A stretch of 64,000 bases of DNA, from assembly GCF_003019035.1 (NCBI RefSeq), contig NZ_CP027447.1; one strand, written 5' to 3'. Each line of letters opens with the position of its first letter. Position 1 is the stretch's first letter. Source of the stretch: Escherichia coli (lineage in GTDB: Bacteria; Pseudomonadota; Gammaproteobacteria; Enterobacterales; Enterobacteriaceae). The translations under genes were made by a program, and so were the position numbers. Of this stretch, positions 11,123 through 64,000 are shown one piece after another. The notes under the pieces were generated by a model. That model was not told the DNA's origin. It saw only the letters and a program-made list of their open reading frames with translations, and made no database searches.

Positions 11123-12127
11123 TTAATCCCCCGTGGACACTGCGTGGACACTCACGCCACCTTTCAGCGGATTAAGGGCCACCGCATCCTGCAGGTAATC
11201 CGGTGCAAAATGTGCATATGCCATTGTTTGCTGAATGGTTGCGTGGCCAAGAATCTTCTGAAGCGCAATAATGTTTCCTCCGTTCATCACAAAATGGCTG
11301 GCGAACGTATGCCGCAGCACATGTGCAGCTTGGCCTTTTGGCAAATCGGGCTTAACTCTTTTCAGCGCCAGGCAGAATTCCCGGTACTTCACCTCAAACA
11401 AGCCGCCTGTTTCTCTGGTTTTGATCGCCTCACAAACTGCCTGCGAAATTGGCACTGTTCTCTTTCGGCCATTTTTGGTTTCAAGAAACGTTACACGGTT
11501 ATGAACTATCTGTTCACCACGAAGCTTACAAGCTTCACTCCAGCGCGCCCCCGTGCTTAAACACAAAAGCGCAACACGCCAGTAATCGCCCTCCAGTGTA
11601 TCGAGCAATAGCGCCACTTCCTTCTGGGACAGGAAAGCCATTTCTCGTGGAGATACATAAAGAATAGAAATTCCCCTTACCGGATGTTCTGCATCCCAGA
11701 GGCCTATTTTCTTCAGTATGGTAAACATTCCGGATAACCGATTCATGTATCTGTTAGCAGATGACGGTTTCAATCCATCAGCTATCTTTTGAGAACGCCA
11801 CGCGATAATTTTTAGCTTATCAAGATCCACAGCCTGCATATCAGCGCCAAGCTCATTGATTATGTTGCGCAGTTGTTTTCGGTCTTCTTCCGCCTTACGC
11901 CTGTGCTGGCCGTGATACATCCACCACAACTCAAGCAAATCATTTAGCGTTCGACGATCACGGTAGCCCTGTATATATTCCCGCTTTTCAGCGTTCGCCA
12001 TGATGTAGCGTTCAGTGGCCACCGCTACCGATTTTTTGTCAAATACCTTACGCACGCGCTTTCCCTTGCGTCCGTTCGGCCTGATGTCCAGCAAATAACG
12101 ACCATCTTCGAGCTTCTTAATCGACAT
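11123..12127 (-). CDS. int: P2-type tyrosine integrase
   Basis: MSIKKLEDGRYLLDIRPNGRKGKR... aligns along its length with remembered P2 Int, including LSTGARW, HxLRHTFASH and MAYAHFAPDYL. The start is placed at MSIKK. Confidence 0.93.
   Translation of the reverse strand: MSIKKLEDGRYLLDIRPNGRKGKRVRKVFDKKSVAVATERYIMANAEKREYIQGYRDRRTLNDLLELWWMYHGQHRRKAEEDRKQLRNIINELGADMQAVDLDKLKIIAWRSQKIADGLKPSSANRYMNRLSGMFTILKKIGLWDAEHPVRGISILYVSPREMAFLSQKEVALLLDTLEGDYWRVALLCLSTGARWSEACKLRGEQIVHNRVTFLETKNGRKRTVPISQAVCEAIKTRETGGLFEVKYREFCLALKRVKPDLPKGQAAHVLRHTFASHFVMNGGNIIALQKILGHATIQQTMAYAHFAPDYLQDAVALNPLKGGVSVHAVSTGD
11133..11150. promoter_or_regulatory. Putative Int arm-type binding repeats (P' arm)
   Basis: GTGGACAC-TGC-GTGGACAC is a tandem repeat with 11-bp period inside the 3' end of int. 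A near-identical copy lies at 46820-46837. It resembles the P2 arm-site consensus TGTGGACA as I recall it. Confidence 0.55.
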
Positions 12128-12223
12128 TGCGAAGCCCTCCAATGAACCGCTCTACAATTTCTCCAGCCTCTTTCCAGCAATAATCAGACCAGACAAAAAG
12201 CAGGTCTAACCAGTTTTCTGGCC

Positions 12224-15241: not shown

Positions 15242-15334
15242 GAAACCAGAACATGCACACACAAAAAAACCGCTTGCCATGCCGCAATCAGTCAGGTTAC
15301 ATTTCCGCTGCACCTCACAAAACGGGTGCCGGGT

Positions 15335-15358
15335 TTCGCAGCCTGCTGACTACACAAG
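15335..15358 (+). promoter_or_regulatory. Upstream target-like copy (TTCGCAG ... CTACACAAG) complementary to the c4-like RNA
   Basis: TTCGCAG (15335-15341) and CTACACAAG (15350-15358) are exact complements of 15479-15485 and 15464-15472. Confidence 0.5.
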
Positions 15359-15363
15359 CGCAC

Positions 15364-15384
15364 AACCGCGCCAGCGGTTTTTTT
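15364..15384 (+). terminator. Rho-independent terminator
   Basis: Stem AACCGC/GCGGTT, loop GCCA, followed by T7. Confidence 0.65.
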
Positions 15385-15425
15385 GTGCGTACTGTATTGC
15401 CACGTTTTTTTCGCGTCAGAATTAT

Positions 15426-15506
15426 GGCGGGGCGTACGGGGCCGACTTCGGTCGGGCCGGGTTCTTGTGTAGCCGGTACTGCGAACCTCGTACGTCTCGC
15501 CACCCA
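15426..15506 (+). ncRNA. Candidate c4/CI-type antisense regulatory RNA (about 80 nt, three-way junction)
   Basis: A 14-16-bp closing stem (15426-15441 with 15486-15501) contains three G-U pairs that are valid only for a plus-strand RNA. It encloses a UUCG-tetraloop hairpin (15440-15458) and a second hairpin (GGTTC/GAACC, 15460-15487). The loop of the second hairpin carries CUUGUGUAG and CUGCGAA, which are complementary to sites upstream and downstream. The 3' tail is ACCCA (RCCA-like). No ORF. Confidence 0.5.
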
Positions 15507-15510
15507 CAGT

Positions 15511-20445: not shown

Positions 20446-20515
20446 AAGCATCTGCGCGAAAAATGCTCACGTTTATAGAGACAGTATCATTCCATTTGGC
20501 ACACTTACTTCAATA

Positions 20516-20602
20516 ATCGATCTGTTAAACAAATAGATTGTCTATTATCTATCGATTAAAACGATCAATTATCTTGACAGTAATGTGCCTTTTTGTAAGA
20601 TC
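20516..20602 (+). promoter_or_regulatory. GATC-rich operator-like module plus sigma70-like promoter reading rightward
   Basis: ATCGATCTGTTA (20516-20527) and ATCGATTAAAACGATCAAT (20551-20569). TTGACA (20574-20579), 16 nt, TAAGAT (20596-20601). Three GATC sites at 20519, 20563 and 20599; the last overlaps the -10. Both motifs recur at 45754-45804. Confidence 0.5.
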
Positions 20603-20809
20603 GTTCGCATTGTGAGCGACAAGATAATTGCGCGGCATTGTCCATGCAAAACGCCCCAATAGCAGCAACTATTGGGGCGTAAAACTCGGTCGGACTCACT
20701 TAACCTGATATGCGTGCCTTCCGAAGTAAATCAAAATGTGCGTCGTATATTTTATTGCTTACACGCACCTCTGTAAAGGCACGCATATTTTTCCTATGAG
20801 GTAAATAAA

Positions 20810-21079
20810 GTGCGGGCTAAAACAGGTATTTGCAAGAACCCTCATCGTTATAATCCAACATTTCTGTCTCTCCCTGAATATCAAGGACAAGAAGGTCGGC
20901 ACAAATGCGCTGCCTGTGCTTTTGAGCTAGGCATAAAAGATGCGCTTGAAGGACGCGCTATGGCTCAGAATGATTTAGTTTTAGCTAACATTCCGTTTAG
21001 CCAGGCTGGAACTGTAAGGCACAGAGATGCCTATGAAGCATATGTTCGTGGTTGGCGATTAATACACAGCAACAATTGA
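20810..21079 (+). CDS. Hypothetical 89-aa moron protein
   Basis: GTG start 9 nt after GAGG. It has its own promoter region and a strong terminator. Contains HKCAACAFELG. Family not recognised. Confidence 0.5.
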   Translation: MRAKTGICKNPHRYNPTFLSLPEYQGQEGRHKCAACAFELGIKDALEGRAMAQNDLVLANIPFSQAGTVRHRDAYEAYVRGWRLIHSNN

Positions 21080-21088
21080 TACTTTTGA

Positions 21089-21111
21089 AGCGCCGATAAG
21101 GCGCTTTTTTT
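21089..21111 (+). terminator. Rho-independent terminator
   Basis: AGCGCC-gataa-GGCGCT followed by T7. Confidence 0.8.
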
Positions 21112-21398
21112 GTTTGCACGATAGTGCACAAGTTTGCACAATTTTTTTGAACGACTTTTTGTACTTCCGGCCCGCGTGGTGGCTGGATCCGTCAAGGATC
21201 CGTACGTGCACAAAAATACGCGTTTTTTCTGCGCGCAGGTGACGGGGGAACAGCCCGCGTTTCAGGGGGTAAATAGCATTCCCTTAACGATGTCGCAGCG
21301 ACATGACAGAATGGCCGTATTTCTCACGCTGAGCGTGAAAAATACGTGAGGGATTCTGCTTTGATGGGGTGAAAGGTAAGGCCGTCAAAATCGCACTG

Positions 21399-46883: not shown

Positions 46884-46903
46884 TTTTCATCAACAAGGAT
46901 TTT
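46884..46903. repeat. attR core (20 bp)
   Basis: Identical to 10921-10940. On the minus strand it is followed upstream by GTG (46904-46906), the stranded native pdxB start codon. Confidence 0.85.
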
Positions 46904-50754: not shown

Positions 50755-52827
<2,073 letters not shown>

Positions 52828-52844
52828 TCTGCTCTGGCATTGCT

Positions 52845-52876
52845 TGCCGGATATGGCGTGAACGCCGCATCCGGCA
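52845..52876. repeat. REP element
   Basis: tgccggatatggcgtgaacgccgcatccggca. Confidence 0.65.
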
Positions 52877-52882
52877 CATTAC

Positions 52883-53161
52883 TTACTGCTGTGACGCCTG
52901 CTGAAACAGGTGTTCCCACATATCGGTCACCAGCGCCTGGTCACGCGGCGACAATTCACCGGCACCAATGGCTTTTTCCAGACTCTGGCTAACGGTTGTA
53001 TGTACCGCCTGAGCGGAGTGGTCGTCACCACTTTCCAGTTCTGCGATGGCTAATGTCAGGTGGCCACGCAAATACCCACTGGCAAACAACTCATCATCAC
53101 TGGCATGGTCAACCATACCGTCGATTAATGCCAGAATGCGTGATTCAAACTCCGCGATCAT
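52883..53161 (-). CDS. yfcL: YfcL (DUF440-like small protein)
   Basis: 92-aa ORF in conserved synteny. Confidence 0.85.
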
Positions 53162-53194
53162 CTTCTTTCCTCATTGTAAAACGTGGCGCTGGCT

Positions 53195-53743
53195 TCAGTT
53201 GAGCGCTTCCGGCCACGGGAACTGTTCCGCCGTAAGTTCCGGCGTGTGATAATAATTTTGTAGTGCTTTAATGAAGCGTGCCGGACGTTCGGGAATGCCG
53301 TTTGCCAGATAATCCATCACCTGCGCATGTACCCGCCGTTGAAATACCACGCGGTCCGGTTCGAAATCCCCTTCCAGATTGTCGCAGCTAACATTAAACG
53401 GATATCCCGCCGCCACGCAGAACAACCAGTCCAGCGCCTGCGGCTTCACTTCAACATCTTCAAACTGGCTTTGCGTTTGGGCATCGCGTCCGTCGGGACA
53501 ATACCAGTAGCCGAAATCAACCAGCTCACGGCGCGCTTTCCCGGCAATACACCAGTGCGAAATCTCATGAATTGCGCTGGCATAAAAGCCATGAGCAAAG
53601 ACGATTCGGTTATACGGTACTTCCGCATCAGCAGGAAGATAGATCGGTTCGTCGTCGCCTTTAATCAGACGGGTATTAAAATCATCGGCAAAGCAGCTAT
53701 TAAAAATTTCAATCAACTGCTCATAGTGGTGTGTACTGTTCAT
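53195..53743 (-). CDS. epmC: Elongation factor P hydroxylase
   Basis: 182 aa (YfcM) in conserved synteny. Confidence 0.85.
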   Translation of the reverse strand: MNSTHHYEQLIEIFNSCFADDFNTRLIKGDDEPIYLPADAEVPYNRIVFAHGFYASAIHEISHWCIAGKARRELVDFGYWYCPDGRDAQTQSQFEDVEVKPQALDWLFCVAAGYPFNVSCDNLEGDFEPDRVVFQRRVHAQVMDYLANGIPERPARFIKALQNYYHTPELTAEQFPWPEALN

Positions 53744-54552
53744 TAGTTCATCCCCAACCAGTGGAGGATCTCCTGTCCATGGCTATCGTAAAGTAATTTG
53801 GCACTCATCACCGCCGAGACGATAACGATCATCGGGCGGATCAGCTTTTGTCCTTTGCTCAACACCAGTCTTGACCCCATGCGCGCGCCGAGGAACTGCC
53901 CCACCAGCATCACAAATCCTGTCGCCCAAATCACTTTGCCGCCGAGAATAAACAGCAGCAAACCACCGATGTTTGACGTTGCGTTGAGTAATTTGGCGTG
54001 GGCCGTGGCTTTGGCGAGGTTGAATCCGCACAGCGTAACAAAGGCCAGCGCGTAAAACGACCCAGCAGCCGGGCCAAAGAATCCATCGTAAAAACCGACG
54101 CAGCCCCCCGCCACCAGCGCAAATGGCAGTCCATACATCCGGCGCTGGCGATCTTCTTCTCCCAGTTTTGGCATCAGCAAAAAATAGAGGCCGATACAAA
54201 TCACCAGGATCGGTAAAATCTGCCGTAAGACATCGGCCTGAACATACTGCACCAACAGCGCGCCGCTCATTGAGCCGACAAAGGTCATGGCGATATTGAG
54301 TTTCTGATCGCTTAAGCTAACCACTTTGCGCCGAATAAAGTAGATAGTGGCGGAAATAGAGCCGCCGCAGGCTTGCAGTTTATTAGTTGCCAGCGCGTTA
54401 GCCGGAGACATCCCCGCCGCCATCAATGCCGGAATGGTGAGTAACCCACCGCCACCGGCAATCGAGTCGATAAATCCCGCCAGCATGGCGACAAAAAAGA
54501 GAACTCCCAGCAACAGCGGGGAAACCATAAACAGGCTATTAAACGTTTCCAT
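53743..54552 (-). CDS. yfcA: TauE/SafE-family membrane protein YfcA
   Basis: 269-aa polytopic ORF. Confidence 0.88.
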   Translation of the reverse strand: METFNSLFMVSPLLLGVLFFVAMLAGFIDSIAGGGGLLTIPALMAAGMSPANALATNKLQACGGSISATIYFIRRKVVSLSDQKLNIAMTFVGSMSGALLVQYVQADVLRQILPILVICIGLYFLLMPKLGEEDRQRRMYGLPFALVAGGCVGFYDGFFGPAAGSFYALAFVTLCGFNLAKATAHAKLLNATSNIGGLLLFILGGKVIWATGFVMLVGQFLGARMGSRLVLSKGQKLIRPMIVIVSAVMSAKLLYDSHGQEILHWLGMN

Positions 54553-55376
54553 TAGATCACGTGCTCATCCAGTAGCGCCTGGCAGGAAGGCGGCAACGGA
54601 GGCGGTGTCTTCTTCTCAGGCTTTGTTGTTCCCGGTTTTGGTGGTTCAAACCAGCTTTGCAGTTCTGCCCCGCAACCATCGCCTGGTGGTGGTAAAGGTT
54701 GATCTTCACACTCCAGACTATCGGCAGGACAACGTAATCGTACATGCATATGCGCGCGATGCTGGAACCAGGGTCGCACTTTACGTAACCAGTCGCGATC
54801 GGTGCCCGCATCAAGGCAAAGTTGTTGTTTAATCGCCGGATTAACAAAAATGCGCGTGACGTCTTTGTCCTGGGCGGCGAGTTTGATCAAGCTGAAAATT
54901 TCTGGCTTCCACAGCGCGGGGACAACGTGTTTACCGTCGCGGGATACTAAGTCCAGTGCTTGCGGGCGCAAGAGTTGCGCGGAGGTCCAGCGTGTTTTCG
55001 GCAGTTGCAGGAAGATATCGACATCCAGCCCGGTCTGGTGGCTGGCGTGACCGCCGTTGAAACGACCACCAGCGGGCATCCCCATATCGCCAATCAGCAC
55101 CGTACCCATGCCCAGATTGCCCACCTGGCGACTCAGACGCTGGATAAACATCACCAGATCCGGGTGCCCGAAATAGCGACGCTGATCGGTACGCATGACC
55201 TGATAATGCTCGGACTGTATCGGCAGCGTGTCAGCGCCGACGATACAACCATTGGAAAAGCTGCCTATCGATTGTGCGCTACCCGGCACAGGTTGGGTTA
55301 TTTTTTGCCACGGCGTCGCTGCCAGGCTGGCACTACTGGCAAGCAGGGCCAGCAGCGCAATCGCGGTTTTGTTCAT
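54552..55376 (-). CDS. mepA: Penicillin-insensitive murein DD-endopeptidase
   Basis: 274 aa with a signal peptide and HxH metallopeptidase motifs. Confidence 0.9.
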
Positions 55377-55379
55377 TTT

Positions 55380-56465
55380 TTACCAGCGTGGAATATCAGT
55401 CTTCACATCGGCATTTTGCGCCCGTTGCCGTAACAGGTGATCCATTAAAACGATCGCTAGCATCGCTTCCGCGATCGGCACCGCGCGGATCCCAACACAA
55501 GGATCGTGACGACCTTTGGTGATCATCTCAACTTCTTCGCCAAAGCGGTTAATGGTGCGCCCCGGCACGGTAATACTGGAGGTTGGCTTCAGCGCCATAT
55601 GGGCAATGATTTGCTGCCCGCTGCTGATACCGCCAAGAATGCCGCCCGCATGGTTGCTCTGGAATCCGTCTTTGGTGATTTCGTCGCGGTTCTGGCTGCC
55701 ACGCAGCGCTACCACGTCAAAACCATCACCAATTTCTACGCCTTTCACCGCGTTGATGCTCATCAGCGCATGGGCGATGTCGGCATCCAGGCGATCAAAG
55801 ACCGGCTCGCCAAGTCCGGCGGGGACGCCACTGGCAACAACGGTGACTTTCGCGCCGATGGAGTCGCCCTCTTTTTTCAGCGCGCGCATCAGTTCATCTA
55901 ACGCGTCGATTTTGTCCGGGTCCGGGCAGAAAAACGGATTTTGCTCGACCTGCGACCAGTCTTTGATTTCCAGCGGAATGTCACCCATCTGGGTCAGGCA
56001 GCCGCGGATTTCAATACCAAATTTCTCGGCGAGATATTTTTTGGCAATCGCCCCTGCCGCCACGCGCATGGCGGTTTCTCGGGCGGAAGAGCGCCCGCCG
56101 CCGCGATAATCGCGCAGGCCGTATTTTTGTTCGTAAGTGTAATCGGCATGACCTGGACGGAAAACGTCCTTAATCGCACTATAATCCTGAGAACGCTGGT
56201 CGGTATTTTCGATCAACAAACCGATGCTGGTGCCGGTAGTAACACCTTCAAAAACACCGGAGAGAATTTTGACCTGATCCGGCTCACGGCGCTGGGTGGT
56301 ATAGCGCGATGTCCCAGGGCGACGACGATCAAGGTCATGTTGCAGGTCCGCTTCCGTCAGCGGAATGCCTGGCGGAACACCATCGACGATGCAGCCGAGC
56401 GCCAGCCCGTGCGATTCGCCGAAGGTGGTTACGCGAAAGAGTTGTCCAATTGTGTTTCCAGCCAT
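55380..56465 (-). CDS. aroC: Chorismate synthase
   Basis: [20 protein letters not shown], 361 aa. Confidence 0.95.
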
Positions 56466-56499
56466 CACGGCTCCGTTATTGTTGTGTTTGCGTGTTTAC

Positions 56500-57432
56500 T
56501 TAATCTTTATAAATCGCGAAATGTTCACGGGCCGCCAGCAGCTGCTCTTTGGTGAGCATAAACACACCATCGCCGCCGTTATCAAACTCCAGCCAGGTGA
56601 ACGGAACATTCGGATATTGTTCCATAAGATGTACCATGCTGTTGCCCACTTCACAAATCAGTACGCCGTCATCCGCAAGGTAATCAGCCGCATTACCGAG
56701 AATGCGACGCGTCAGTTTCAGGCCGTCGGTGCCAGACGCCAGACCCAGTTCCGGCTCGTGGCGGTATTCGTTTGGCAGGTCGGACATATCTTCCGCATCG
56801 ACATACGGCGGGTTAGTGACAATCAGGTCGTACTGCACTTTCGGCAAGTCGCGGAACAGATCGGACCGAATAGGAATGACGTTGTGGATCAGACCGTGTT
56901 CTTCGATATTCTGTTCGGCAACCGCCAGCGCGTCGGGAGAGATATCTACCGCGTCGACTTCTGCATCCGGGAAGGCATAAGCACAGGCAATCGCAATGCA
57001 GCCGCTACCGGTACACATATCTAAAATATGCTGCGGTTGCTTGCTGATGAGTCCGGCAAATTTATTGTTGATCAGTTCACCAATCGGCGAGCGCGGCACC
57101 AGCACGCGTTCATCGACGTAAAATTCATGGCCGCAGAACCAGGCTTTGTTGGTCAGGTAAGCCACCGGAATGCGTTCGTTGACGCGGCGGATCACGCGCT
57201 CAACAATACGGTGTTTTTCGCTGGAGGTCAGACGCGCGGTGCGCATGTCTTCTGGGATATCCAGCGGCAGGTAGAGCGAAGGCAACACCAGTTGCACGGC
57301 TTCATCCCACGGATTATCGGTGCCGTGACCATACCAGATATTTGCCGCGCTGAAGCGGCTCACCGACCAGCGCAACATGTCCTGAATGGTTTGCAGCTCA
57401 TTTACTGCTTCATCAACGAAAATTTTATCCAC
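56500..57432 (-). CDS. prmB: Ribosomal protein uL3 glutamine N5-methyltransferase
   Basis: The GTG start after GGAGG gives (M)[14 protein letters not shown] (310 aa). NPPY motif. The longer track ORF is upstream read-through. Confidence 0.9.
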
Positions 57433-57597
57433 GTATTCCTCCAGGGCATGATCGCAATAATTTCGGCGGCTAGTTTGCCATGAAGATGACGATAAATCAG
57501 CATTCACACGCGGTGAGTGAGGAAAAATACGTTTTAAGCGATCGATTGTACGGTGAGTCGGGTAAACTGTAGGAAAATTAGAAATAGAGACAGTTAA

Positions 57598-58149
57598 ATG
57601 AAAAAGAAAACAACACTTAGCGAGGAGGACCAGGCGCTGTTTCGCCAGTTGATGGCGGGGACTCGCAAGATTAAGCAGGACACGATTGTCCACCGACCGC
57701 AGCGTAAAAAAATCAGCGAAGTGCCGGTCAAGCGGTTGATTCAGGAGCAGGCCGATGCCAGCCATTATTTCTCTGACGAGTTTCAACCATTATTAAATAC
57801 CGAAGGTCCGGTGAAATATGTTCGCCCGGATGTCAGCCATTTTGAAGCGAAGAAACTGCGGCGCGGTGATTATTCACCGGAGCTGTTTTTGGATTTGCAC
57901 GGTTTGACGCAGCTGCAAGCCAAGCAGGAGTTAGGCGCATTGATTGCCGCCTGCCGCCGCGAACATGTGTTTTGCGCCTGTGTGATGCATGGTCATGGTA
58001 AGCATATTTTGAAGCAGCAAACGCCGCTGTGGCTGGCGCAACATCCCCATGTAATGGCATTTCATCAGGCACCGAAAGAGTACGGTGGTGATGCGGCATT
58101 GCTGGTGTTGATTGAAGTGGATGAATGGCTGCCGCCGGAATTGCCCTGA
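57598..58149 (+). CDS. smrB: Ribosome-rescue endonuclease SmrB
   Basis: 183 aa with a C-terminal Smr domain (LDLHG...HGHG). Confidence 0.9.
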
Positions 58150-58234
58150 CATCATGACGGGCATACGCTTTCACTGACAGACGTCGACGGTTAAGTGTAA
58201 GATTATCCAAACAGAACTCAACGCAGGGCACTCA

Positions 58235-59593
58235 ATGATGAATATCCGCACGCTTAAGCTCACTAATCTGGGGCGGTTTGAAGAACTTGACGTTCATCTG
58301 GCTCCAGTGGAGGAGTTCAAGAGCAATGTGACCGTTTTTATTGGTAATAATGGTGCAGGTAAAACATCAATATTAAAATCGTTGGCAACCAGCCTGAGTT
58401 GGTTCGTTGCCCGAGTTCGTACTGAAAAAGGTAACGGTAGCCCTATTCCTGAAGACGCTATTCTGAACGGTAGGAGTTCGGCGACAATTGAACTTCAGGT
58501 ACTGAATACGCATCCAGCGACGGAGGTCGCTACGCCCTACCGTTGGTTGCTTGCCAGAACGGCCAGTGGGAAAAAATCGACCACCGCCTCCAGCCTGCAA
58601 GAGGCCAGCCAATTGGCTGCGTTTTATCGAGATCAATACACCCAGAATAGCGGGGCATCCTTCCCGCTTATCGCCTTCTATCCCGTAGAACGTGTCGTGC
58701 TGGATGTGCCGTTGAAAATAAAAGAACGTCATAATTTTTTGCAACTGGATGGCTACGATAACGCCCTGAATCAGGGTATTGATTTCCGCCGTTTCTTTGA
58801 GTGGTTTCGCAATCGCGAAGATGCAGAAAATGAATCGGGCTTACCGCAAGACGTTCTGGATAAGCTCAGTACCAGGATAGATCTCGATAACGCCGTCTTA
58901 AATGCATTAACGGCAATCATGGCCTCGTCCCGGGATCGCCAGTTGACCGCCGTCAGAACGGCCATTAGTCGCTTTATGCCAGGGTTCAGCAACTTACGCG
59001 TCAGGCGTAAACCTCGCCTGCATATGTCGATAGATAAAAATGGCCAGACACTGAATGTGCTGCAATTATCGCAGGGTGAAAAATCACTGATGGCGTTAGT
59101 CGGCGATATTGCTCGCCGCCTGGCAATGATGAACCCGATGTTAGAAAACCCGCTAAACGGCGAGGGAATTGTATTAATTGATGAAGTGGACATGCACCTG
59201 CATCCAACATGGCAGCGTACAATCATCCAGCGTCTGACGACAACATTCCCACATTGCCAGTTTGTCTTAACAACCCACTCTCCTTTAGTGATCAGTGATT
59301 GCAAAGATGTGCTGGTTTATTCTCTGGATGATGGCGAATTAACGCAGCTCCCGTCTCTGTATGGGCAAGATGCGAATACTGTGCTTTTGAATGTGATGGA
59401 TACGGATATTCGCAATGCGACAGTGGCAGAAAAACTTAACGATCTTTTGGATCTGATTCAGAAAAACGACTTTATCAACGCTAACGCTCTTCTGAATACG
59501 CTAAGCCTGGAACTTCCTGAAAACCATCTTGAACTGGTGAAAGCCAGAATGCTTCTGCGCAAACAGGAAATTAAACATGCGCGAAATAACTAA
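58235..59593 (+). CDS. AAA/ABC-type ATPase (AAA_15/21, PtuA-like)
   Basis: 452 aa. Walker A GNNGAGKTS, signature LSQGEKS, Walker B VLIDEVDMHLHP and H-loop TTHSP. Confidence 0.75.
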   Translation: MMNIRTLKLTNLGRFEELDVHLAPVEEFKSNVTVFIGNNGAGKTSILKSLATSLSWFVARVRTEKGNGSPIPEDAILNGRSSATIELQVLNTHPATEVATPYRWLLARTASGKKSTTASSLQEASQLAAFYRDQYTQNSGASFPLIAFYPVERVVLDVPLKIKERHNFLQLDGYDNALNQGIDFRRFFEWFRNREDAENESGLPQDVLDKLSTRIDLDNAVLNALTAIMASSRDRQLTAVRTAISRFMPGFSNLRVRRKPRLHMSIDKNGQTLNVLQLSQGEKSLMALVGDIARRLAMMNPMLENPLNGEGIVLIDEVDMHLHPTWQRTIIQRLTTTFPHCQFVLTTHSPLVISDCKDVLVYSLDDGELTQLPSLYGQDANTVLLNVMDTDIRNATVAEKLNDLLDLIQKNDFINANALLNTLSLELPENHLELVKARMLLRKQEIKHARNN

Positions 59594-60236
59594 AGGGCAA
59601 CCGCCGGCCAGTTTGCAACAGTGGGTGAGAGCAAAACCACGGGATAAAAATGCCAATCAGTGGTTTCAGGAACTTTATGCGCAAAAAAAATGGGATATCG
59701 TTGGCGATCTCAGCCAGCAGTGCGCTCAGGAGCAATTTTATCTCTGTGCTTATTGCTGCGATCGCGTGACAGGTACAAACCGCGATACCGTTAATGAACA
59801 TGTCGAAGCCAGGGATTTAGCCCCTGCTCGCAGTCTGGAATTCACCAATATCGTTGCAAGCTGCAAAACAAAAGGCCAGTGTGACGACTCGCATAAGAAC
59901 CAGCCATTGCTGTTAACGCCGCTTATGCCGGAATGTGAAACCGAGTTTATCTTCAAGATCAGTGGTCGAATTGAAGGGACGACGCCGAAAGCTATCGATG
60001 CGATTAAGGTACTCAACCTTGGCGATAGTGAACGTAATAATCGGGCATTGATTGAAAAACGTAAGCAGCTTTCCGACAGCCTTCTGTGGGCTAATGGCAT
60101 TGACCCTTCAGAGGGGCTTGAGGATGACGACCTGCTGCAAGCGGTTATCGACGAATTACTCACCCCCGTCGACGGTTATCTGGCACCTTTCGCTCCCGTG
60201 GTGGCGAATATTCTAAAAAACTGGATGACCGCATGA
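59577..60236 (+). CDS. HNH-type nuclease (TIGR02646-like, PtuB-like)
   Basis: 219 aa. CAYCC...NEHVEA Cys/His pattern. Overlaps the ATPase gene by 17 nt. Confidence 0.65.
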   Translation: MREITKGQPPASLQQWVRAKPRDKNANQWFQELYAQKKWDIVGDLSQQCAQEQFYLCAYCCDRVTGTNRDTVNEHVEARDLAPARSLEFTNIVASCKTKGQCDDSHKNQPLLLTPLMPECETEFIFKISGRIEGTTPKAIDAIKVLNLGDSERNNRALIEKRKQLSDSLLWANGIDPSEGLEDDDLLQAVIDELLTPVDGYLAPFAPVVANILKNWMTA

Positions 60237-60248
60237 CATAACGGACAA

Positions 60249-60266
60249 CGGGGCCAGATGGCCCCG
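60249..60266. other. GC-rich hairpin between the convergent HNH gene and yfcO
   Basis: CGGGGCC-agat-GGCCCCG. Confidence 0.4.
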
Positions 60267-60284
60267 CGTCGTGTGGTGTATGCG

Positions 60285-61145
60285 CTACAGTTCGTTGAGC
60301 GTGTACTGGAAGCGGCAAGTAGAATCAATCGGCTGCCTGCTGCTGGTATCCACCTGCACCACCATGTCGTGCAGTTGTTTGTCCGTAATGGGGTGCCGGT
60401 TGGGCGTAACCGTAACGCTTGAACTGTCGCAGCCGGAGGTGGAGAACGTGATCATCTCTGCCACAAAGCGGCAGTACGCACCGCGTTCATCCATCTGGCT
60501 GCCGTCGCAAAGCCTGCCGTTTTCCATCAGGAAGGTCGGGAGCGTTTTCTCAATTATGCCGCCCGTCGACTGTAATGACAGCACCTTCGTATACGAAATG
60601 TAATCCTCACTCCACGAAATATCATAGGTGGCCACTGAGACCGGGCAGGTCGAGTTACGCGCCTGCGGGCCGATATAGGGGCCCATTGTTTTTTCTAACG
60701 GCGCAGAACTCTCATTATACGTTGTGACCAGCCATGGGCAGCCATGCACGTCGGCATCATAATAAACGTCGATAGGCATATCGTAACAATCCCACTTGGT
60801 TTTATCCGATTGTTGATCATACTCAGCAAGCCCAGGACAGTTTGACAACGATGTTAAAACAAAATAATTCGAATATAAACTGGGCGGGGTATCACTCCCT
60901 GTCCAGCTAATATTTTCCAGATAACCCACTTGCAACGTGGTGGTGGAGTTCTTATACACACCATGCATAACACCGTCGGGGGTAAGAATATCAAGGTGGT
61001 ATCTGATTTGCGTATTGTAACTGGAAATGCCCGAAATCGTATGCAACGTGGCAATCTTTTTCGCCGCCTGCGCGCCCTCCCCCGCAAACATCAGCAGTAA
61101 CAAACAGGTTATCAAACGGAATATTTTCATATCAAAGGTACTCAA
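60285..61145 (-). CDS. yfcO: YfcO (DUF2544) fimbrial-cluster protein
   Basis: 286-aa secreted ORF. The start may instead be MKIFRLIT at 61130. Confidence 0.8.
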   Translation of the reverse strand: MSTFDMKIFRLITCLLLLMFAGEGAQAAKKIATLHTISGISSYNTQIRYHLDILTPDGVMHGVYKNSTTTLQVGYLENISWTGSDTPPSLYSNYFVLTSLSNCPGLAEYDQQSDKTKWDCYDMPIDVYYDADVHGCPWLVTTYNESSAPLEKTMGPYIGPQARNSTCPVSVATYDISWSEDYISYTKVLSLQSTGGIIEKTLPTFLMENGRLCDGSQMDERGAYCRFVAEMITFSTSGCDSSSVTVTPNRHPITDKQLHDMVVQVDTSSRQPIDSTCRFQYTLNEL

Positions 61146-61662
61146 ACGTTGCGGTTAAAGAAGCGGTAAACTCACCCATCGTCACTTCCCGGCCGCTTTT
61201 CGCCTGGAGCCAGGCATTAAAATTCAGATTGTTATCACCGTTACTCAGCACAAAGGTCGCGCCGCTGGTGTTGTTAATCGGCACCGCCGTTCCGTCGGTT
61301 TTTTCCATCCCAATCCCCACGCCCTGCGCCCCAGAGGAGGCATCCAGCGCCAGAAAACCGGGCTGCTCGCTGTCTTCCGTACCGGTCAGCGTCACCCGGA
61401 CCTGATACTCGGCTGGCCCTTTACAATCTTTCAGCTGAAACACCACCGGCACCCGCGCCGACTGCCCGGTCACCATCAGGTCTTTACGGCTGATGGTGGG
61501 GAAATGCACCTCCGCCAGCGTTTCGCCCTGAATCACCAGCGTGCAGGACTTACTGAGTAAATTGCCGTAGAAATGCAGGTTGTCAGCCGCCTGTGTCGTG
61601 CCGCCGTACGCCAGCAGCGCCGCCAGCGCCGCGTAGCGGTAATGTGTGCGAGTCAGATTCAT
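61132..61662 (-). CDS. yfcP: Fimbrial-like subunit YfcP
   Basis: 176 aa with a signal peptide and fimbrial fold. Overlapping operon arrangement. Confidence 0.8.
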   Translation of the reverse strand: MNLTRTHYRYAALAALLAYGGTTQAADNLHFYGNLLSKSCTLVIQGETLAEVHFPTISRKDLMVTGQSARVPVVFQLKDCKGPAEYQVRVTLTGTEDSEQPGFLALDASSGAQGVGIGMEKTDGTAVPINNTSGATFVLSNGDNNLNFNAWLQAKSGREVTMGEFTASLTATFEYL

Positions 61663-62138
61663 TGGTAATCCACCGTTAAGGTTGCCCAGGCAGAGAAGTT
61701 CCCTTCACTGAGCGCCGCGTCGCTGGCTTTTACCGGCACCGCGGTCAGCGTCGGCGGGCTCGCCGGGTCTATTTTCAACTGTTCGCCCACTTTAAACGGC
61801 TGGCCGTTTTGCTGAAGCTCAATCCCCAGGCCAGCGACGTCGGTTTCAATGGCGGCGTCATCGTAACTGGTCTGGTGACCCGTCCAGGTCAGGCTCATCT
61901 CCCAGGCGTCGTCGCGCACATCAGGATCGCAGGTGATGGTGTAAGGCACGTCCTGGCGGAAGTTGTCGCCGTTGATGTTGTCGATGATCACGTTGCTGAA
62001 CGCCACTTCAATGCTCTTACCGTCGCTGATGGTACAGGCGGGCGGCGAAACCAGCGTGCCGTGAAAAGTAACGTCGTTAACCGCGGCCTGCGACAGGCCA
62101 GCAAAACCGTAAAGTAAGCACCACGCGAGTCGTTTCAT
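61659..62138 (-). CDS. yfcQ: Fimbrial-like subunit YfcQ
   Basis: 159 aa with a signal peptide. Confidence 0.8.
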   Translation of the reverse strand: MKRLAWCLLYGFAGLSQAAVNDVTFHGTLVSPPACTISDGKSIEVAFSNVIIDNINGDNFRQDVPYTITCDPDVRDDAWEMSLTWTGHQTSYDDAAIETDVAGLGIELQQNGQPFKVGEQLKIDPASPPTLTAVPVKASDAALSEGNFSAWATLTVDYQ

Positions 62139-62638
62139 TGGTAGTCCACCACCATGGTCATGGTCGCGTTAAACTCCGATGCCATCAGTTCCACACCGCT
62201 CTGCTTCACCGGAACAGCTTCGAAGTCTGGCTGAGTACTGGTTTTGAACGGCAGCCAGCTGCTGTTGCCCACGGCCACCAGCGAATGGTCGGTGGCATTC
62301 TGAATGCGAATGCCGAAGCCATCGATCCCGGTACTCAGTACCGTTTCACCATTAATTGTGGTGGTGGTGGCCTGAAGCTGCATTCGCAGGTCGTCGCTGA
62401 CGCTGTTTGAACAGTTCATGGTGTAGCCCACCGGCTGACGGTAGTTAGTGCCATTAATGCCTTTAATGACCACACTGCCGAACTCCACCGCGCTTCCCTG
62501 TATCGAGCAGGGCGGTGGCCCATCCACCAGCACGCGCAGCGTCAGGTTGACGATTTTGCCGCCCGCCATTGCCGGGGAAACGGTCGCGCCACAGGCCAGC
62601 AGTAGCGCGGCAGACCCGGCCAGAAAGAACGCTTTCAT
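62135..62638 (-). CDS. yfcR: Fimbrial-like subunit YfcR
   Basis: Start placed at MKAFFLAGSAALLLACG (167 aa). Confidence 0.8.
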   Translation of the reverse strand: MKAFFLAGSAALLLACGATVSPAMAGGKIVNLTLRVLVDGPPPCSIQGSAVEFGSVVIKGINGTNYRQPVGYTMNCSNSVSDDLRMQLQATTTTINGETVLSTGIDGFGIRIQNATDHSLVAVGNSSWLPFKTSTQPDFEAVPVKQSGVELMASEFNATMTMVVDYQ

Positions 62639-62654
62639 GTTGCTTCTCCCGTTA

Positions 62655-63407
62655 TCAGCCTTTGCTGCTTTGATCTTCATCCACCTTGCAGGTGTCCCCT
62701 TCACAGCGGAAGATCAGCGGCAGGCGCGCGCCGTAGTCGTTGATGTAGGTCAGCACCGGGGCGCTGTCCATTTTTGCCTTTAACGGCTGTGACGTTTTCG
62801 GCGACATCACCAGCGGTTTAAACCCGGCGGCGGTCGGCCCTTTCTTCTGTGTGCTGGCATCGCTGATGATGACGTGGTATGGCGTCGGGTTATTGACGGT
62901 ATAGTCCTGGCCGCTGCGCGTGAGCGTCACCTTAAACTGCCACGGTTTTCTCATGTCGATCTTCTCCAGCGCCTTTGGTCGCCAGAACAGCTTGATGCGC
63001 GTTTGCAGGGCAATTTGCAGAGTGTTGGCTTTCCCGGTCTTTGGCGGGATCTCACGCACGTTGTAGTAGAACAGGCTTTCGCGGTCAGACGGCAGCGTGT
63101 GAATGTCCGGCAGCGCCTGAATCTTCACCTGGCCGTTCATCATGGCGTCAATACGCTGCACCGGCGGCAGTACCGCCAGCGGCGAGGTGATTTTGTTGCC
63201 CTTCTCGTCTTCCAGCCAGCTTTGCGCCAGGTAAGGCAGCTTTTCGTTGTTGTTACGCAACGTCACGCTGATCGATTTATCGCCTTCGTTAAACACCAGA
63301 CGGGTGCGGTCCGGGGTGACCGAGGCGTGCGCCGCCAGGCTGACGGTGGAAAGCAGTGCCGCCAGCGCCGTGCTGACGACCATTGAACTGGATAATTTAT
63401 AAGACAT
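62655..63407 (-). CDS. yfcS: Periplasmic fimbrial chaperone YfcS
   Basis: Start placed at MSYKLSSSMVV (250 aa). PapD-like RLVFNEGDKSISVTLRN. Confidence 0.85.
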   Translation of the reverse strand: MSYKLSSSMVVSTALAALLSTVSLAAHASVTPDRTRLVFNEGDKSISVTLRNNNEKLPYLAQSWLEDEKGNKITSPLAVLPPVQRIDAMMNGQVKIQALPDIHTLPSDRESLFYYNVREIPPKTGKANTLQIALQTRIKLFWRPKALEKIDMRKPWQFKVTLTRSGQDYTVNNPTPYHVIISDASTQKKGPTAAGFKPLVMSPKTSQPLKAKMDSAPVLTYINDYGARLPLIFRCEGDTCKVDEDQSSKG

Positions 63408-63426
63408 TGATCGTTCCTTAATCAGA

Positions 63427-64000
63427 TTATTGAGTAGCTGAAATTGACGTCGGCGCTTCCGTTGGTGTGACTTGCCGCGTCTGGTCCTGAATAACAGGTT
63501 TAATTTCTGGCGCTGAAGAATCAGGGGCTGCCGTTCCCTTTTGTTCACACGGCAACAACAGGCCGCTGAACAGATCGGCAGGTAGCGGCTTCGGCAATAC
63601 GATCTCGCATTGTGCGCTGCCTTCCCAGAATACCGTCATATGCTCACCCGCATTGACTCCCGCCAGATAGACATTGCCTTCATCATCCACAATGCCAACC
63701 TGCTGCTGCTCGTCGTTTTTCACTTCCGCGCCAAACGGCGGGTAGCTGCCGTCACGCAACCGCAGTACCGCCATCGCTTTTTGCCCGCTGATCACTTTGA
63801 ATTTGCGATAGCCAATTGCACCTTCCGTCAGGGTTGCCTGTACCACCGACTGGGTGGCTTCCGCATCTTCCGGCAGGTTGTTTAAATCGATATACGCCTG
63901 ATTGCGATAGTAGTTGTTAATATCGGCGACCACCGCCTTGCCAAACATATTGGTGTACACCGGCGCGCCGTTGCTTTCGACCGGCACGTCAGCAATCCCG
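63427..64000 (-). CDS. yfcU: Fimbrial usher, C-terminal part (partial; continues beyond the window)
   Basis: The frame is open to the window edge and the sequence resembles an usher C-terminal domain. Confidence 0.75.
   Translation of the reverse strand, partial: GIADVPVESNGAPVYTNMFGKAVVADINNYYRNQAYIDLNNLPEDAEATQSVVQATLTEGAIGYRKFKVISGQKAMAVLRLRDGSYPPFGAEVKNDEQQQVGIVDDEGNVYLAGVNAGEHMTVFWEGSAQCEIVLPKPLPADLFSGLLLPCEQKGTAAPDSSAPEIKPVIQDQTRQVTPTEAPTSISATQ

What the first reader, a model, noticed from the sequence alone, without database searches (positions are those of the whole stretch)
58150..60284. Two-gene ATPase + HNH (Septu/PtuAB-like) defence islet inserted between smrB and the yfc fimbrial cluster
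From memory, E. coli K-12 has smrB followed directly by yfcO. Here a 2.1-kb insert carries two overlapping genes.

The first is a 452-aa ABC/AAA_15-21-type ATPase with Walker A GNNGAGKTS, LSQGEKS, DEVDMHLH and TTHSP. The second is a 219-aa Cys/His-rich protein with CAYCC...NEHVEA, typical of TIGR02646 HNH nucleases. This is the composition of Septu (PtuA/PtuB) and of the effector pair attached to some retrons.

No reverse transcriptase, integrase or flanking repeat is visible, so the mode of acquisition is unclear.
Basis: partly seen in the sequence, partly recalled or inferred. Interest (0 to 1): 0.5.

Follow-up and report, generated by a model that had tools for sequence, protein, structure and literature searches.

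The report
Known Septu anti-phage gene pair

Summary
ptuA (58235-59593, 452 aa) and ptuB (59577-60236, 219 aa) overlap by 17 nt, all quoted motifs are present, and K-12 has only a 70-bp smrB-yfcO spacer.

PADLOC gives full-length PtuA (558 bits) and PtuB (313 bits) matches. There is no RT, retron ncRNA, integrase or meaningful flanking repeat.

The pair is an allele of Septu EcB88 (Nat Commun 2026, PMC13096335). PtuA is identical at 396 of 399 comparable residues and PtuB at 217 of 219. The published clone starts inside smrB and is colinear with window 57939-60536.

That paper shows defence against T5-like and T-even phages. It shows dependence on PtuA K43/D316 and PtuB H75/N91, which are the same residues here. 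It also shows abortive-infection-like behaviour and infection-dependent cleavage of the tRNA-Tyr variable loop.

New but minor points:
- The locus is accessory and decaying. Of 5,426 E. coli genomes, 136 are intact at the gene junction, about 47 carry a 198-bp internal deletion, and about 475 keep only a ptuB 3' scar.
- The closest relatives in other species (72% identity or less) often sit inside type I R-M operons (hsdM-hsdS-ptuAB-hsdR), the slot PrrC occupies.

Novelty: already known. Interest is low.

The parts
57598..58149 (+). smrB (core gene), the left flank of the insert. It is not part of the system.
   Evidence: ORF; annotated 'endonuclease SmrB' in the 100%-identical SCU-301 locus. 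None of 80 related ptuAB loci in other species encodes a SmrB homologue nearby, so the adjacency is specific to E. coli.
58150..58234 (+). 85-nt leader between the smrB stop and the ptuA start. It contains a sigma-70-like site (CTGACA-18 nt-TAAGAT, 58174-58203). This stretch is insert-specific and absent from K-12.
   Evidence: The promoter scan found this site, but the total number of sites in the region was no higher than in shuffles, so it is only a candidate. The alignment with K-12 and UTI89 diverges immediately after the smrB stop codon. The published clone, driven by its native promoter, contains this stretch with 1 mismatch.
58235..59593 (+). ptuA: a 452-aa ABC/SMC-type ATPase. Motifs: Walker A K43, signature LSQGEKS at 278, Walker B D316/E317, H-loop TTHSP at 346. 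It lacks the N-terminal extension found in retron-type PtuA.
   Evidence: PADLOC PtuA PDLC00271, 558.5 bits, residues 2-450 against profile 1-420 of 421. Pfam AAA_21, AAA_23 and AAA_15. PDB relatives are the retron Ec83 and Ec78 PtuA and Septu PtuA 8EE4. Identical at 396 of 399 comparable residues to Septu EcB88 PtuA, WP_000981116.1. Motif positions.
59577..60236 (+). ptuB: a 219-aa HNH-type nuclease. It has a CxxC pair (C57/C60), catalytic H75 and N91, and C96/C102. A C-terminal helical part presumably docks on the PtuA C-terminus. The start codon overlaps the ptuA 3' end by 17 nt.
   Evidence: PADLOC PtuB PDLC00344, 313.2 bits, full length. C57, C60, N73, E74, H75, N91, C96 and C102 are invariant in 40 orthologues. 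The orthologue profile hits only PtuB/TIGR02646 chains in the PDB (9n69_F, 9e8z_E, 8ee7_C, 9vh1_F). Identical at 217 of 219 residues to EcB88 PtuB, WP_016243072.1. An overlapping ptuA-ptuB arrangement is conserved in 69 of 80 related loci.
60249..60266 (.). G+C-rich hairpin (CGGGGCC-AGAT-GGCCCCG) between the convergent ptuB and yfcO genes. It is homologous to the hairpin in the K-12 70-bp spacer, so it belongs to the backbone and marks the right border of the insert.
   Evidence: Sequence; alignment with K-12 and UTI89. The terminator scan did not call it because it lacks a T-run, so a terminator role is only inferred.
60285..61130 (-). StfH/YfcO-family fimbrial adhesin gene, the first gene of the right flank (yfc chaperone-usher operon). 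It is not part of the system.
   Evidence: SCU-301 annotation, 100% identical over window 52150-64000.

Best explanation
This is a stand-alone type I Septu anti-phage system, and it is an allele of the published 'Septu EcB88'.

Shown here: ptuA and ptuB form a translationally coupled two-gene operon, with its own leader, inserted between smrB and yfcO.

Inferred from solved relatives: PtuA, an ABC/SMC-type ATPase, dimerises and oligomerises, and holds the HNH nuclease PtuB through its C-terminal region.

Shown for the 99%-identical allele, inferred for this one:
- The complex is silent in uninfected cells.
- On infection by T5-like (Demerecviridae) or some T-even phages it becomes active.
- Both the ATPase (K43, D316) and the nuclease (H75, N91) are required.
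- Phages escape by supplying extra tRNA-Tyr.

Unknown: the phage trigger, what keeps the complex inactive without a retron RT-msDNA, and whether PtuB cuts the tRNA directly.

Evolution (inferred): the pair was acquired horizontally early in E. coli history and is now being lost by deletion in most lineages.
For: - ORFs and motifs.
- Family assignment: full-length PtuA and PtuB PADLOC matches with E-values of 3.6e-168 and 2.2e-94; Pfam AAA_21, AAA_23 and AAA_15; PDB relatives are all PtuA and PtuB.
- Identity to Septu EcB88: PtuA 396 of 399 residues and PtuB 217 of 219, all five substitutions conservative (D19E, V98A, I228L; K138R, V198I). The first 399 nt of the published 2,598-bp clone align to window 57939-58337 with 7 mismatches, starting inside smrB.
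- The mutated residues K43, D316, H75 and N91 are at identical positions here.
- Published phenotypes: 10-100-fold defence against BASEL Bas26-34, T4 and T6 sensitivity, loss of defence with K43A, D316A, H75A or N91A, infection-dependent tRNA-Tyr cleavage at C48/A49, and rescue by phage tRNA-Tyr (PMC13096335).
- The clone works alone in DH10B, so no RT or hsd partner is needed.
- No retron parts are present.
- Accessory and foreign character: 183 of 5,426 genomes, and 48.0% against 53.5% G+C.
- Ancient presence: the ptuB codon 146-219 remnant in about 475 genomes is 96.3% identical to the window, the same divergence as the flanking core genes at 96.0%.
Against: - No experiment was done on this exact allele.
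- The last 53 residues of EcB88 PtuA were truncated in the stored supplement and could not be compared.
- Direct tRNA cleavage by PtuAB has not been reproduced in vitro for the related retron-Eco7 PtuAB (PMC12673091). The tRNA effect could therefore be indirect.
- The one stand-alone Septu studied biochemically (E. coli ATCC 25922) nicks DNA and is inhibited by ATP (as cited in PMC12819146 and PMC12673091).
- The promoter call is no better than chance.
Confidence: 0.9

Rival explanations
1. It is a Septu system that acts as a DNA nuclease, like Septu of E. coli ATCC 25922. In that model a PtuA6:PtuB2 complex nicks and degrades phage DNA when cellular ATP falls. The observed tRNA-Tyr loss would then be a downstream or indirect effect.
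For: Stand-alone PtuAB of ATCC 25922 has ATP-inhibited DNA-nicking activity, as cited in PMC12819146 and PMC12673091. [quoted passage not shown] HNH nucleases are typically DNases. The window PtuA has stand-alone architecture, with no N-terminal extension.
Against: For the 99%-identical allele, tRNA fragment sequencing and Northern blots show infection-dependent cleavage at a defined site in tRNA-Tyr. Extra tRNA-Tyr alone restores phage growth. The window PtuA is much closer to retron-type PtuA (E = 9e-63) than to ATCC 25922 PtuA (E = 2e-32).
Confidence: 0.15
2. It is an orphaned effector module of a type I-A retron, either controlled by a reverse transcriptase and msDNA encoded elsewhere or left over after retron loss.
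For: The closest solved PtuA proteins are from retrons Ec83 and Ec78. The PADLOC retron models ATPase_I-A (381 bits) and HNH_I-A (79 bits) also match. It shares its tRNA-Tyr target with retron-Eco7.
Against: No RT is annotated and no retron ncRNA was found in the window. No RT-like ORF lies next to any of 80 related loci. The PtuA alignment starts at residue 60-68 of the retron proteins, so the RT-binding N-terminal extension is missing. The NCBIfam Ec78 equivalogs are below cut-off, at 351 against 500 bits and 94 against 150 bits. The 2.6-kb clone alone defends DH10B.
Confidence: 0.03
3. It is an inactive, decaying copy. The genes are intact ORFs but no longer confer defence in this strain.
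For: The locus is clearly eroding in the species. About 47 genomes carry a 198-bp deletion that removes the PtuA C-terminus and the PtuB start, and about 475 keep only a ptuB 3' scar. This allele carries five amino-acid differences from the tested one.
Against: Both ORFs are full length with every catalytic and invariant residue intact. The substitutions are conservative. The leader differs by 1 nt from the functional clone. The 2,135-bp stretch is 100% identical in another isolate, and 135 of the 136 genomes that keep the gene junction are at least 99% identical over it, which is consistent with maintenance.
Confidence: 0.05
4. It is a housekeeping or DNA-repair SMC/RecF-like ATPase with an accessory nuclease, unrelated to phage defence.
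For: There are weak Pfam and NCBIfam similarities to SMC_N, RecF and Rad50 through the shared ABC ATPase fold.
Against: These matches are far weaker than the PtuA matches. The locus is absent from more than 96% of E. coli genomes. About 30 of roughly 67 closer relatives have type I restriction-modification genes adjacent, 17 of them in a full hsdM-hsdS-ptuAB-hsdR operon. There is direct published defence data.
Confidence: 0.01

Closest known systems
Septu EcB88 of E. coli JBBDAGI-19-0041 (PtuA WP_000981116.1, PtuB WP_016243072.1; Nat Commun 2026, PMC13096335)
   Same: The gene pair, protein lengths (452 and 219 aa), residue numbering of the catalytic sites and the leader sequence are the same. 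The chromosomal site is also the same: the published clone starts inside smrB and is colinear with window 57939-60536. PtuA is 99.2% and PtuB 99.1% identical.
   Different: There are five conservative substitutions (PtuA D19E, V98A, I228L; PtuB K138R, V198I) and 7 mismatches in the 399 nt of held sequence. The last 53 residues of PtuA were not comparable. The host strain differs: the window is 100% identical to SCU-301 over 52150-64000 but also carries a P2-like prophage that SCU-301 lacks.
Septu of E. coli ATCC 25922 (PDB 8EE4, 8EE7, 8EEA): stand-alone PtuA6:PtuB2 complex, an ATP-inhibited DNA nickase
   Same: Both are two-gene stand-alone ABC ATPase + HNH systems of similar size (465 and 243 aa against 452 and 219 aa). 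Neither has an RT or an N-terminal extension on PtuA.
   Different: It is only a distant relative (phmmer E = 2.2e-32 for PtuA; PtuB is detectable only with a profile, E = 5.8e-9). The reported substrate is DNA rather than tRNA-Tyr, and the genomic location is different.
Type I-A retrons Eco7 (Ec78) and Eco4 (Ec83): RT + msDNA + PtuA + PtuB
   Same: These hold the closest solved PtuA proteins (Ec83 E = 9e-63; Ec78 about 1e-46). Retron-Eco7 also acts through tRNA-Tyr variable-loop cleavage and restricts T5-like phages.
   Different: Here there is no RT, no ncRNA, no N-terminal extension of about 60 residues, and about 26 fewer residues near position 232 of PtuA. The NCBIfam equivalog scores are below cut-off. 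Control by msDNA sequestration therefore cannot apply.
PrrC anticodon nuclease in the prr locus (hsdM-hsdS-prrC-hsdR). The arrangement is recalled from my own knowledge and supported by the PrrC170 clone description in PMC11555353.
   Same: Both combine an ABC-ATPase-type module with a tRNA-targeting abortive defence. Many close relatives of this PtuAB occupy the same slot between hsdS and hsdR.
   Different: PrrC is a single protein with a different nuclease domain, and it targets the tRNA-Lys anticodon. The E. coli PtuAB here has no hsd genes beside it and works without them.

Membership tests
Septu (type I, PtuA + PtuB) | PtuA: ABC/SMC-type ATPase that matches the PtuA family models over its full length | tested here: met
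   PADLOC PDLC00271, 558.5 bits, residues 2-450 against profile 1-420 of 421. Pfam AAA_21 (79.8 bits), AAA_23 and AAA_15 are above cut-offs.
Septu (type I, PtuA + PtuB) | Intact ATPase motifs: Walker A, ABC signature, Walker B, H-loop | tested here: met
   GNNGAGKTS (K43), LSQGEKS (278), DEVDMHLH (D316/E317) and TTHSP (346).
Septu (type I, PtuA + PtuB) | PtuB: HNH-type nuclease with conserved catalytic His and Asn and Cys ligands | tested here: met
   PADLOC PDLC00344, 313.2 bits, full length. C57, C60, H75, N91, C96 and C102 are invariant in 40 orthologues. The profile hits only PtuB chains in the PDB. The single sequence gave no Pfam or PDB hit, and the fold itself was not modelled.
Septu (type I, PtuA + PtuB) | The two genes are adjacent, co-oriented and form an operon | tested here: met
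   17-nt overlap. An overlapping arrangement is conserved in 69 of 80 related loci.
Septu (type I, PtuA + PtuB) | Stand-alone: no associated reverse transcriptase or ncRNA | tested here: met
   No RT in the annotation of the identical locus. No Rfam hit at E <= 1 in 57000-61000. Only 85 nt lie between smrB and ptuA.
Septu (type I, PtuA + PtuB) | Confers resistance to phage, dependent on both the ATPase and the nuclease | not testable with these tools
   Shown experimentally for the 99%-identical allele EcB88, using K43A, D316A, H75A and N91A mutants (PMC13096335). This is inferred for the window allele.
Type I-A retron (Ec78/Ec83-type Retron-Septu) | Reverse transcriptase gene adjacent to ptuA | tested here: not met
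   smrB lies directly upstream. No ORF with RT motifs was found in any of 80 related loci (a motif screen only).
Type I-A retron (Ec78/Ec83-type Retron-Septu) | msr/msd non-coding RNA | tested here: not met
   No Rfam match in the locus at E <= 1, and none of retron type in the whole window. Caveat: Rfam's coverage of retron ncRNAs is limited.
Type I-A retron (Ec78/Ec83-type Retron-Septu) | PtuA N-terminal extension that binds RT and ncRNA; protein passes the NCBIfam Ec78 PtuA and PtuB equivalog cut-offs | tested here: not met
   Alignments start at residues 60-73 of the 542-552-aa retron PtuA proteins, and at position 53 of the PADLOC ATPase_I-A profile. NF041760 scores 351 against a cut-off of 500, and NF041761 scores 94 against 150.
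TIGR02646 (retron system putative HNH endonuclease subfamily) | Score at or above the curated cut-off of 52.15 bits | tested here: inconclusive
   42.1 bits, E = 8.6e-11. The match is significant but below the cut-off. PDB chains named 'TIGR02646 family protein' are the top profile hits.
Type I R-M-embedded ATPase/nuclease module (PrrC-like arrangement) | Located between hsdS and hsdR of a type I restriction-modification operon | tested here: not met
   The window flanks are smrB and yfcO. The arrangement is met in many relatives: 17 loci have hsdM-hsdS-ptuAB-hsdR, confirmed by Pfam in L006 and L009.
OLD / Gabija / PARIS (ABC ATPase + TOPRIM) | TOPRIM nuclease domain or partner | tested here: not met
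   Only weak ATPase-level similarity was found (AriA E about 1e-6, OLD E = 1e-4). The partner protein is HNH-type.

The most novel reading that the evidence does not exclude
The clade of PtuAB to which this E. coli pair belongs may have evolved as a PrrC-like, tRNA-targeting back-up wired into type I restriction-modification operons (hsdM-hsdS-ptuA-ptuB-hsdR). In that arrangement it would be kept silent by the R-M complex and released when a phage disables restriction. The solitary smrB-yfcO copy would then be a derivative that lost the hsd genes and acquired, or retained, hsd-independent sensing. That would explain how a retron-like, tRNA-Tyr-cleaving PtuAB is kept in check without RT-msDNA. 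I found no mention of this context in three literature searches. However, defence genes embedded in type I R-M operons are a known general phenomenon, and functional coupling is untested.
Probability: 0.15. Interest if true: 0.5.

Novelty: already known. Interest (0 to 1): 0.15.

Why it matters
For annotation, the two genes that RefSeq labels 'AAA family ATPase' and 'hypothetical protein' (WP_077516368.1 and WP_077516370.1 in SCU-301) can be named PtuA and PtuB of a characterised Septu system. Strains that carry the intact allele, about 2.5% of complete E. coli genomes, are predicted to be 10-100-fold less permissive to T5-like phages and to some T-even phages. This is relevant to phage-therapy host-range prediction.

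The population picture shows a defence system fixed at one core-genome site and then eroding by deletion, rather than being exchanged as a mobile island: intact, 198-bp-deleted, 3' scar and empty states all at the same site.

The type I R-M-embedded relatives offer a possible handle on the open question of what triggers and restrains tRNA-targeting PtuAB. None of this changes the basic conclusion that the finding is a correct identification of a known system.

Tried and rejected
1. **Retron hypothesis.** An Rfam scan of the whole window at gathering thresholds, and of 57000-61000 at E <= 1, found no retron ncRNA. No RT appears in the annotation, and no RT-motif ORF lies in the 80 related loci. 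Rejected.

2. **Mobile-element signatures.** No integrase or transposase flanks the pair. The best direct repeat across the insert is a 21-nt repeat with 81% identity and a 12-nt exact core (58173-58193 and 60158-60178). About 0.3 such 12-mers are expected by chance in 3.4 kb, and it does not coincide with either border or with the deletion end-points. Treated as chance.

3. **Variable hotspot with alternative cargo.** Genomes that matched only smrB (FG31-1, GCM39-10-2-9-3-1) have empty 120-125-bp spacers and divergent yfcO alleles. No alternative cargo was seen. About 2,600 genomes were not classified, because a short megablast query misses divergent alleles.

4. **Functional link to SmrB or conserved synteny with the epmC-smrB cluster.** epmC sits next to the hsd-ptuAB island in one species (L006). 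A tblastn search with eight E. coli neighbourhood proteins against all 80 loci found only that one hit. Coincidence.

5. **Single-sequence searches of PtuB.** Searches against Pfam and PDB sequences returned nothing. A 40-sequence profile was needed. Pfam HNH matched only 1 of 40 members.

6. **Searches not run.** Structure prediction, fold search and the large protein-database searches were not run. The identification was already decisive and the cost was not justified.

7. **P2-like prophage variable slot (window 20446-21114).** I checked it for the AAA ATPase + S8 peptidase cargo seen in strain 5283. That cargo is absent from the window, which has only an 89-aa ORF there.
Full report
**1. 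Observation**

The ORF list shows two co-oriented ORFs: 58235..59593 (452 aa) and 59577..60236 (219 aa). They overlap by 17 nt. They lie between smrB (57598..58149, +) and a convergent StfH/YfcO-family adhesin gene (60285..~61130, -).

- 452-aa protein: GNNGAGKTS at 37, LSQGEKS at 278, DEVDMHLH at 316 and TTHSP at 346.
- 219-aa protein: CAYCC at 57 and NEHVEA at 73.

Alignments with K-12 and UTI89 show that similarity stops immediately after the smrB stop codon. It resumes at a G+C-rich hairpin (60249-60266) that K-12 also has. The insert is therefore about 58150-60248.

The insert has 48.0% G+C, against 53.5% in the 6-kb left flank. GC3 is about 50% in the insert genes, against 59-61% in smrB and aroC.

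**2. What it is**

- PADLOC models give full-length matches to PtuA (PDLC00271, 558.5 bits, E = 3.6e-168) and PtuB (PDLC00344, 313.2 bits, E = 2.2e-94).
- Pfam places the ATPase in AAA_21, AAA_23 and AAA_15 and finds nothing for the small protein.
- NCBIfam matches the retron-Ec78 PtuA and PtuB equivalogs and TIGR02646, but all three fall below their curated cut-offs.
- Among solved structures, the ATPase is closest to PtuA of retron Ec83 (E = 9e-63) and of Ec78 (about 1e-46). It is more distant from the stand-alone Septu PtuA of E. coli ATCC 25922 (8EE4, E = 2e-32).
- Those alignments begin at residue 60-73 of the 542-552-aa retron proteins. The RT-binding N-terminal extension described in PMC12819146 is therefore absent.
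- PtuB alone gave no PDB hit. A profile of 40 orthologues taken from related loci hits only PtuB/TIGR02646 chains: 9n69_F, 9e8z_E, 8ee7_C and 9vh1_F.
- C57, C60, N73, E74, H75, N91, C96 and C102 are invariant in that alignment.

**3. It is already characterised**

A literature search led to Nat Commun 2026, PMC13096335, which studies 'Septu EcB88' from E. coli JBBDAGI-19-0041.

Its Supplementary Data 8 gives the cloned DNA and the protein sequences. The comparison gave these results:
- PtuA (WP_000981116.1) is identical to the window protein at 396 of the 399 residues held.
- PtuB (WP_016243072.1) is identical at 217 of 219 residues.
- All five differences are conservative.
- The first 399 nt of the 2,598-bp clone align without gaps to window 57939-58337, with 7 mismatches.
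- The clone starts inside smrB. A colinear clone would end at 60536, inside yfcO.

The published system is therefore at the same chromosomal site. The mutated residues in the paper (PtuA K43 and D316; PtuB H75 and N91) are the same residues at the same positions here.

**4. How it works**

Shown for the 99%-identical allele:
- The 2.6-kb fragment with its native promoter protects DH10B, mainly against Demerecviridae (10-100-fold for BASEL Bas26-34 in the source data) and against T4 and T6.
- K43A, D316A, H75A or N91A abolishes protection.
- At high multiplicity of infection, infected cultures grow poorly and phage yield drops, which is abortive-infection-like.
- E. coli tRNA-Tyr is cleaved in its variable loop (C48/A49), and only during infection.
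- Over-expressed or amplified phage tRNA-Tyr restores phage growth.

Inferred from structures of relatives:
- PtuA dimers bind nucleotide.
- Their C-terminal extensions clamp the C-terminal helical domain of PtuB.

Unknown:
- The phage trigger is unknown. A tail-sheath candidate was excluded in the paper.
- What keeps the complex silent in the absence of the retron RT-msDNA is unknown.
- Whether PtuB cuts the tRNA directly is also unknown. For retron-Eco7 PtuAB, tRNA cleavage could not be reproduced in vitro.

The rival reading is a DNase-type Septu like that of ATCC 25922. It remains possible as the primary biochemical activity, but it is less well supported for this allele.

**5. Not a retron, not mobile**

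- Rfam finds no RNA family in 57000-61000 even at E <= 1. In the whole window it finds only two prophage RNAs far away.
- The annotation of the 100%-identical SCU-301 locus has no RT, integrase or transposase near the pair.
- Repeat searches give only short matches at chance level.
- A sigma-70-like site lies in the 85-nt leader (58174-58203), but such sites are no more frequent than in shuffled sequence.

**6. Distribution in E. coli**

Of 5,426 complete genomes, 658 match some part of the 2,135-bp stretch, always once and always on the chromosome. Of these, 183 have at least 80% of it.

| Locus state | Genomes | Evidence |
|---|---|---|
| Intact ptuA/ptuB junction segment | 136 | |
| 198-bp deletion (window about 59427-59613) | about 47 | |
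| Only the last 225 nt of ptuB (codons 146-219) plus the downstream spacer | about 475 | |
| Direct smrB-yfcO junction of K-12 or B1 type | at least 2,002 | |

- The 198-bp deletion removes the last ~56 codons of ptuA and the first ~12 of ptuB. Because the PtuA C-terminus holds PtuB, and deleting the C-terminus of Ec78 PtuA abolishes immunity, this allele is predicted to be inactive.
- The scar genomes include UTI89 and clone D i2. The scar is 96.3% identical to the window and is preceded by 48 nt of unrelated sequence.
- That divergence equals the divergence of the flanking core genes (96.0%). The insertion therefore predates the split of these lineages, and the scar is a deletion remnant.
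- Two sampled genomes that matched only smrB are also empty, with 120-125-bp spacers.
- About 2,600 genomes were not classified by these short megablast queries.

The locus is therefore accessory, anciently acquired and mostly lost. I saw no alternative cargo at the site.

**7. Relatives elsewhere**

- In one genome per species (185,579 species), 441 stretches encode relatives. The best reach only 72% identity (Iodobacter, Allopseudospirillum, Nitrosomonas, Aeromonas, Enterobacter sp. RIT637).
- No other Escherichia representative carries a close copy.
- 69 of the 80 best loci keep an adjacent ptuB, usually overlapping ptuA by 10-13 nt.
- Many are embedded in type I restriction-modification operons in the order hsdM-hsdS-ptuA-ptuB-hsdR.
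- This was confirmed by Pfam for L006 and L009: N6_Mtase/HsdM_N, Methylase_S, and HSDR_N/SWI2_SNF2.
- tblastn found 17 loci with all three hsd genes. About 30 of roughly 67 loci with at least 49% PtuA identity have at least one hsd gene in the expected place.
- This is the slot occupied by the anticodon nuclease PrrC in prr loci (my own knowledge; compare the PrrC170 clone).
- Three literature searches did not turn up a description of this context for PtuAB.
- The E. coli copy has no hsd neighbours and works in DH10B without them. Any coupling would therefore apply to the relatives, not demonstrably to this locus.

**8. Comparison and membership**

The pair meets every sequence-testable criterion of type I Septu. 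The remaining criterion, anti-phage activity, is shown experimentally for a 99%-identical allele. The pair fails the defining criteria of a type I-A retron (RT, ncRNA, N-terminal extension of PtuA, equivalog cut-offs), although its PtuA is sequence-closest to retron PtuA and shares the tRNA-Tyr target of retron-Eco7. It is not an OLD, Gabija or PARIS system, because it has no TOPRIM domain.

**9. Verdict**

The system is already known and experimentally characterised at this very locus. The residual open questions concern the trigger, the direct substrate, the autoinhibition without a retron, and the meaning of the hsd-embedded relatives. These belong to the Septu field in general rather than to this window. 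Interest is 0.15.

Noticed in passing
window 10941-46883 (att core TTTTCATCAACAAGGATTTT at 10921-10940 and 46884-46903): A ~36-kb P2-like (Peduovirus) prophage is integrated next to pdxB. It is flanked by a 20-bp direct repeat, and the integrase ORF is at 11123-12142 (-). SCU-301 lacks it, although SCU-301 is otherwise 99.99-100% identical to the window. The first 25 kb is 98% identical to Escherichia phage PhiR44_2 (PV340564.1) over 85% of its length. The same pdxB/integrase junction occurs in 302 of 5,426 genomes.
   Followed up: partly
window 15310-15384 (+) and 15420-15507 (+): Rfam gathering-level hits to the isrK Hfq-binding RNA (64 bits) and the C4 antisense RNA (83 bits) lie side by side inside the P2-like prophage.
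   Followed up: no
window 20446-21114; compare L088 29847-33561 (E. coli strain 5283): This is the variable slot of the P2-like prophage, between the parM/partition-like genes and the portal gene. The window has only ~670 bp there, with an 89-aa ORF (20810-21079, +). The otherwise 98%-identical prophage of strain 5283 carries a 3.7-kb 'AAA family ATPase + S8 family peptidase' pair in this slot, a possible defence cargo.
   Followed up: partly
L002 5953-6271 (UTI89) and about 475 other E. coli genomes; corresponds to window 60012-60284: An unannotated deletion scar. It consists of the last 74 codons of ptuB (from codon 146) plus the downstream spacer, 96.3% identical to the window. It is preceded by 48 nt of sequence with no counterpart in the window or in K-12.
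   Followed up: yes
L003 4267-4277 (CREC-544); window about 59427-59613 deleted: About 47 genomes carry a 198-bp deletion that spans the ptuA 3' end and the ptuB start. RefSeq annotates the products as a 404-aa ATPase and a 207-aa hypothetical protein. The allele is predicted to be non-functional.
   Followed up: partly
L006 1320-9315; L009 1221-9355; also L007, L014, L016, L018, L026, L027, L031, L032, L035, L038, L046, L051, L068, L073, L075: Relatives of this PtuAB in other Proteobacteria sit between hsdS and hsdR of type I R-M operons (hsdM-hsdS-ptuA-ptuB-hsdR). This is the same slot as PrrC in prr loci.
   Followed up: partly
window 60285-64000 against L002, L003 and L004: The yfc chaperone-usher fimbrial operon is much more divergent between strains (89-92% identity to UTI89; no megablast match to K-12 beyond smrB) than the adjacent core genes (about 96%). 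This indicates allelic replacement or diversifying selection right next to the Septu site.
   Followed up: no
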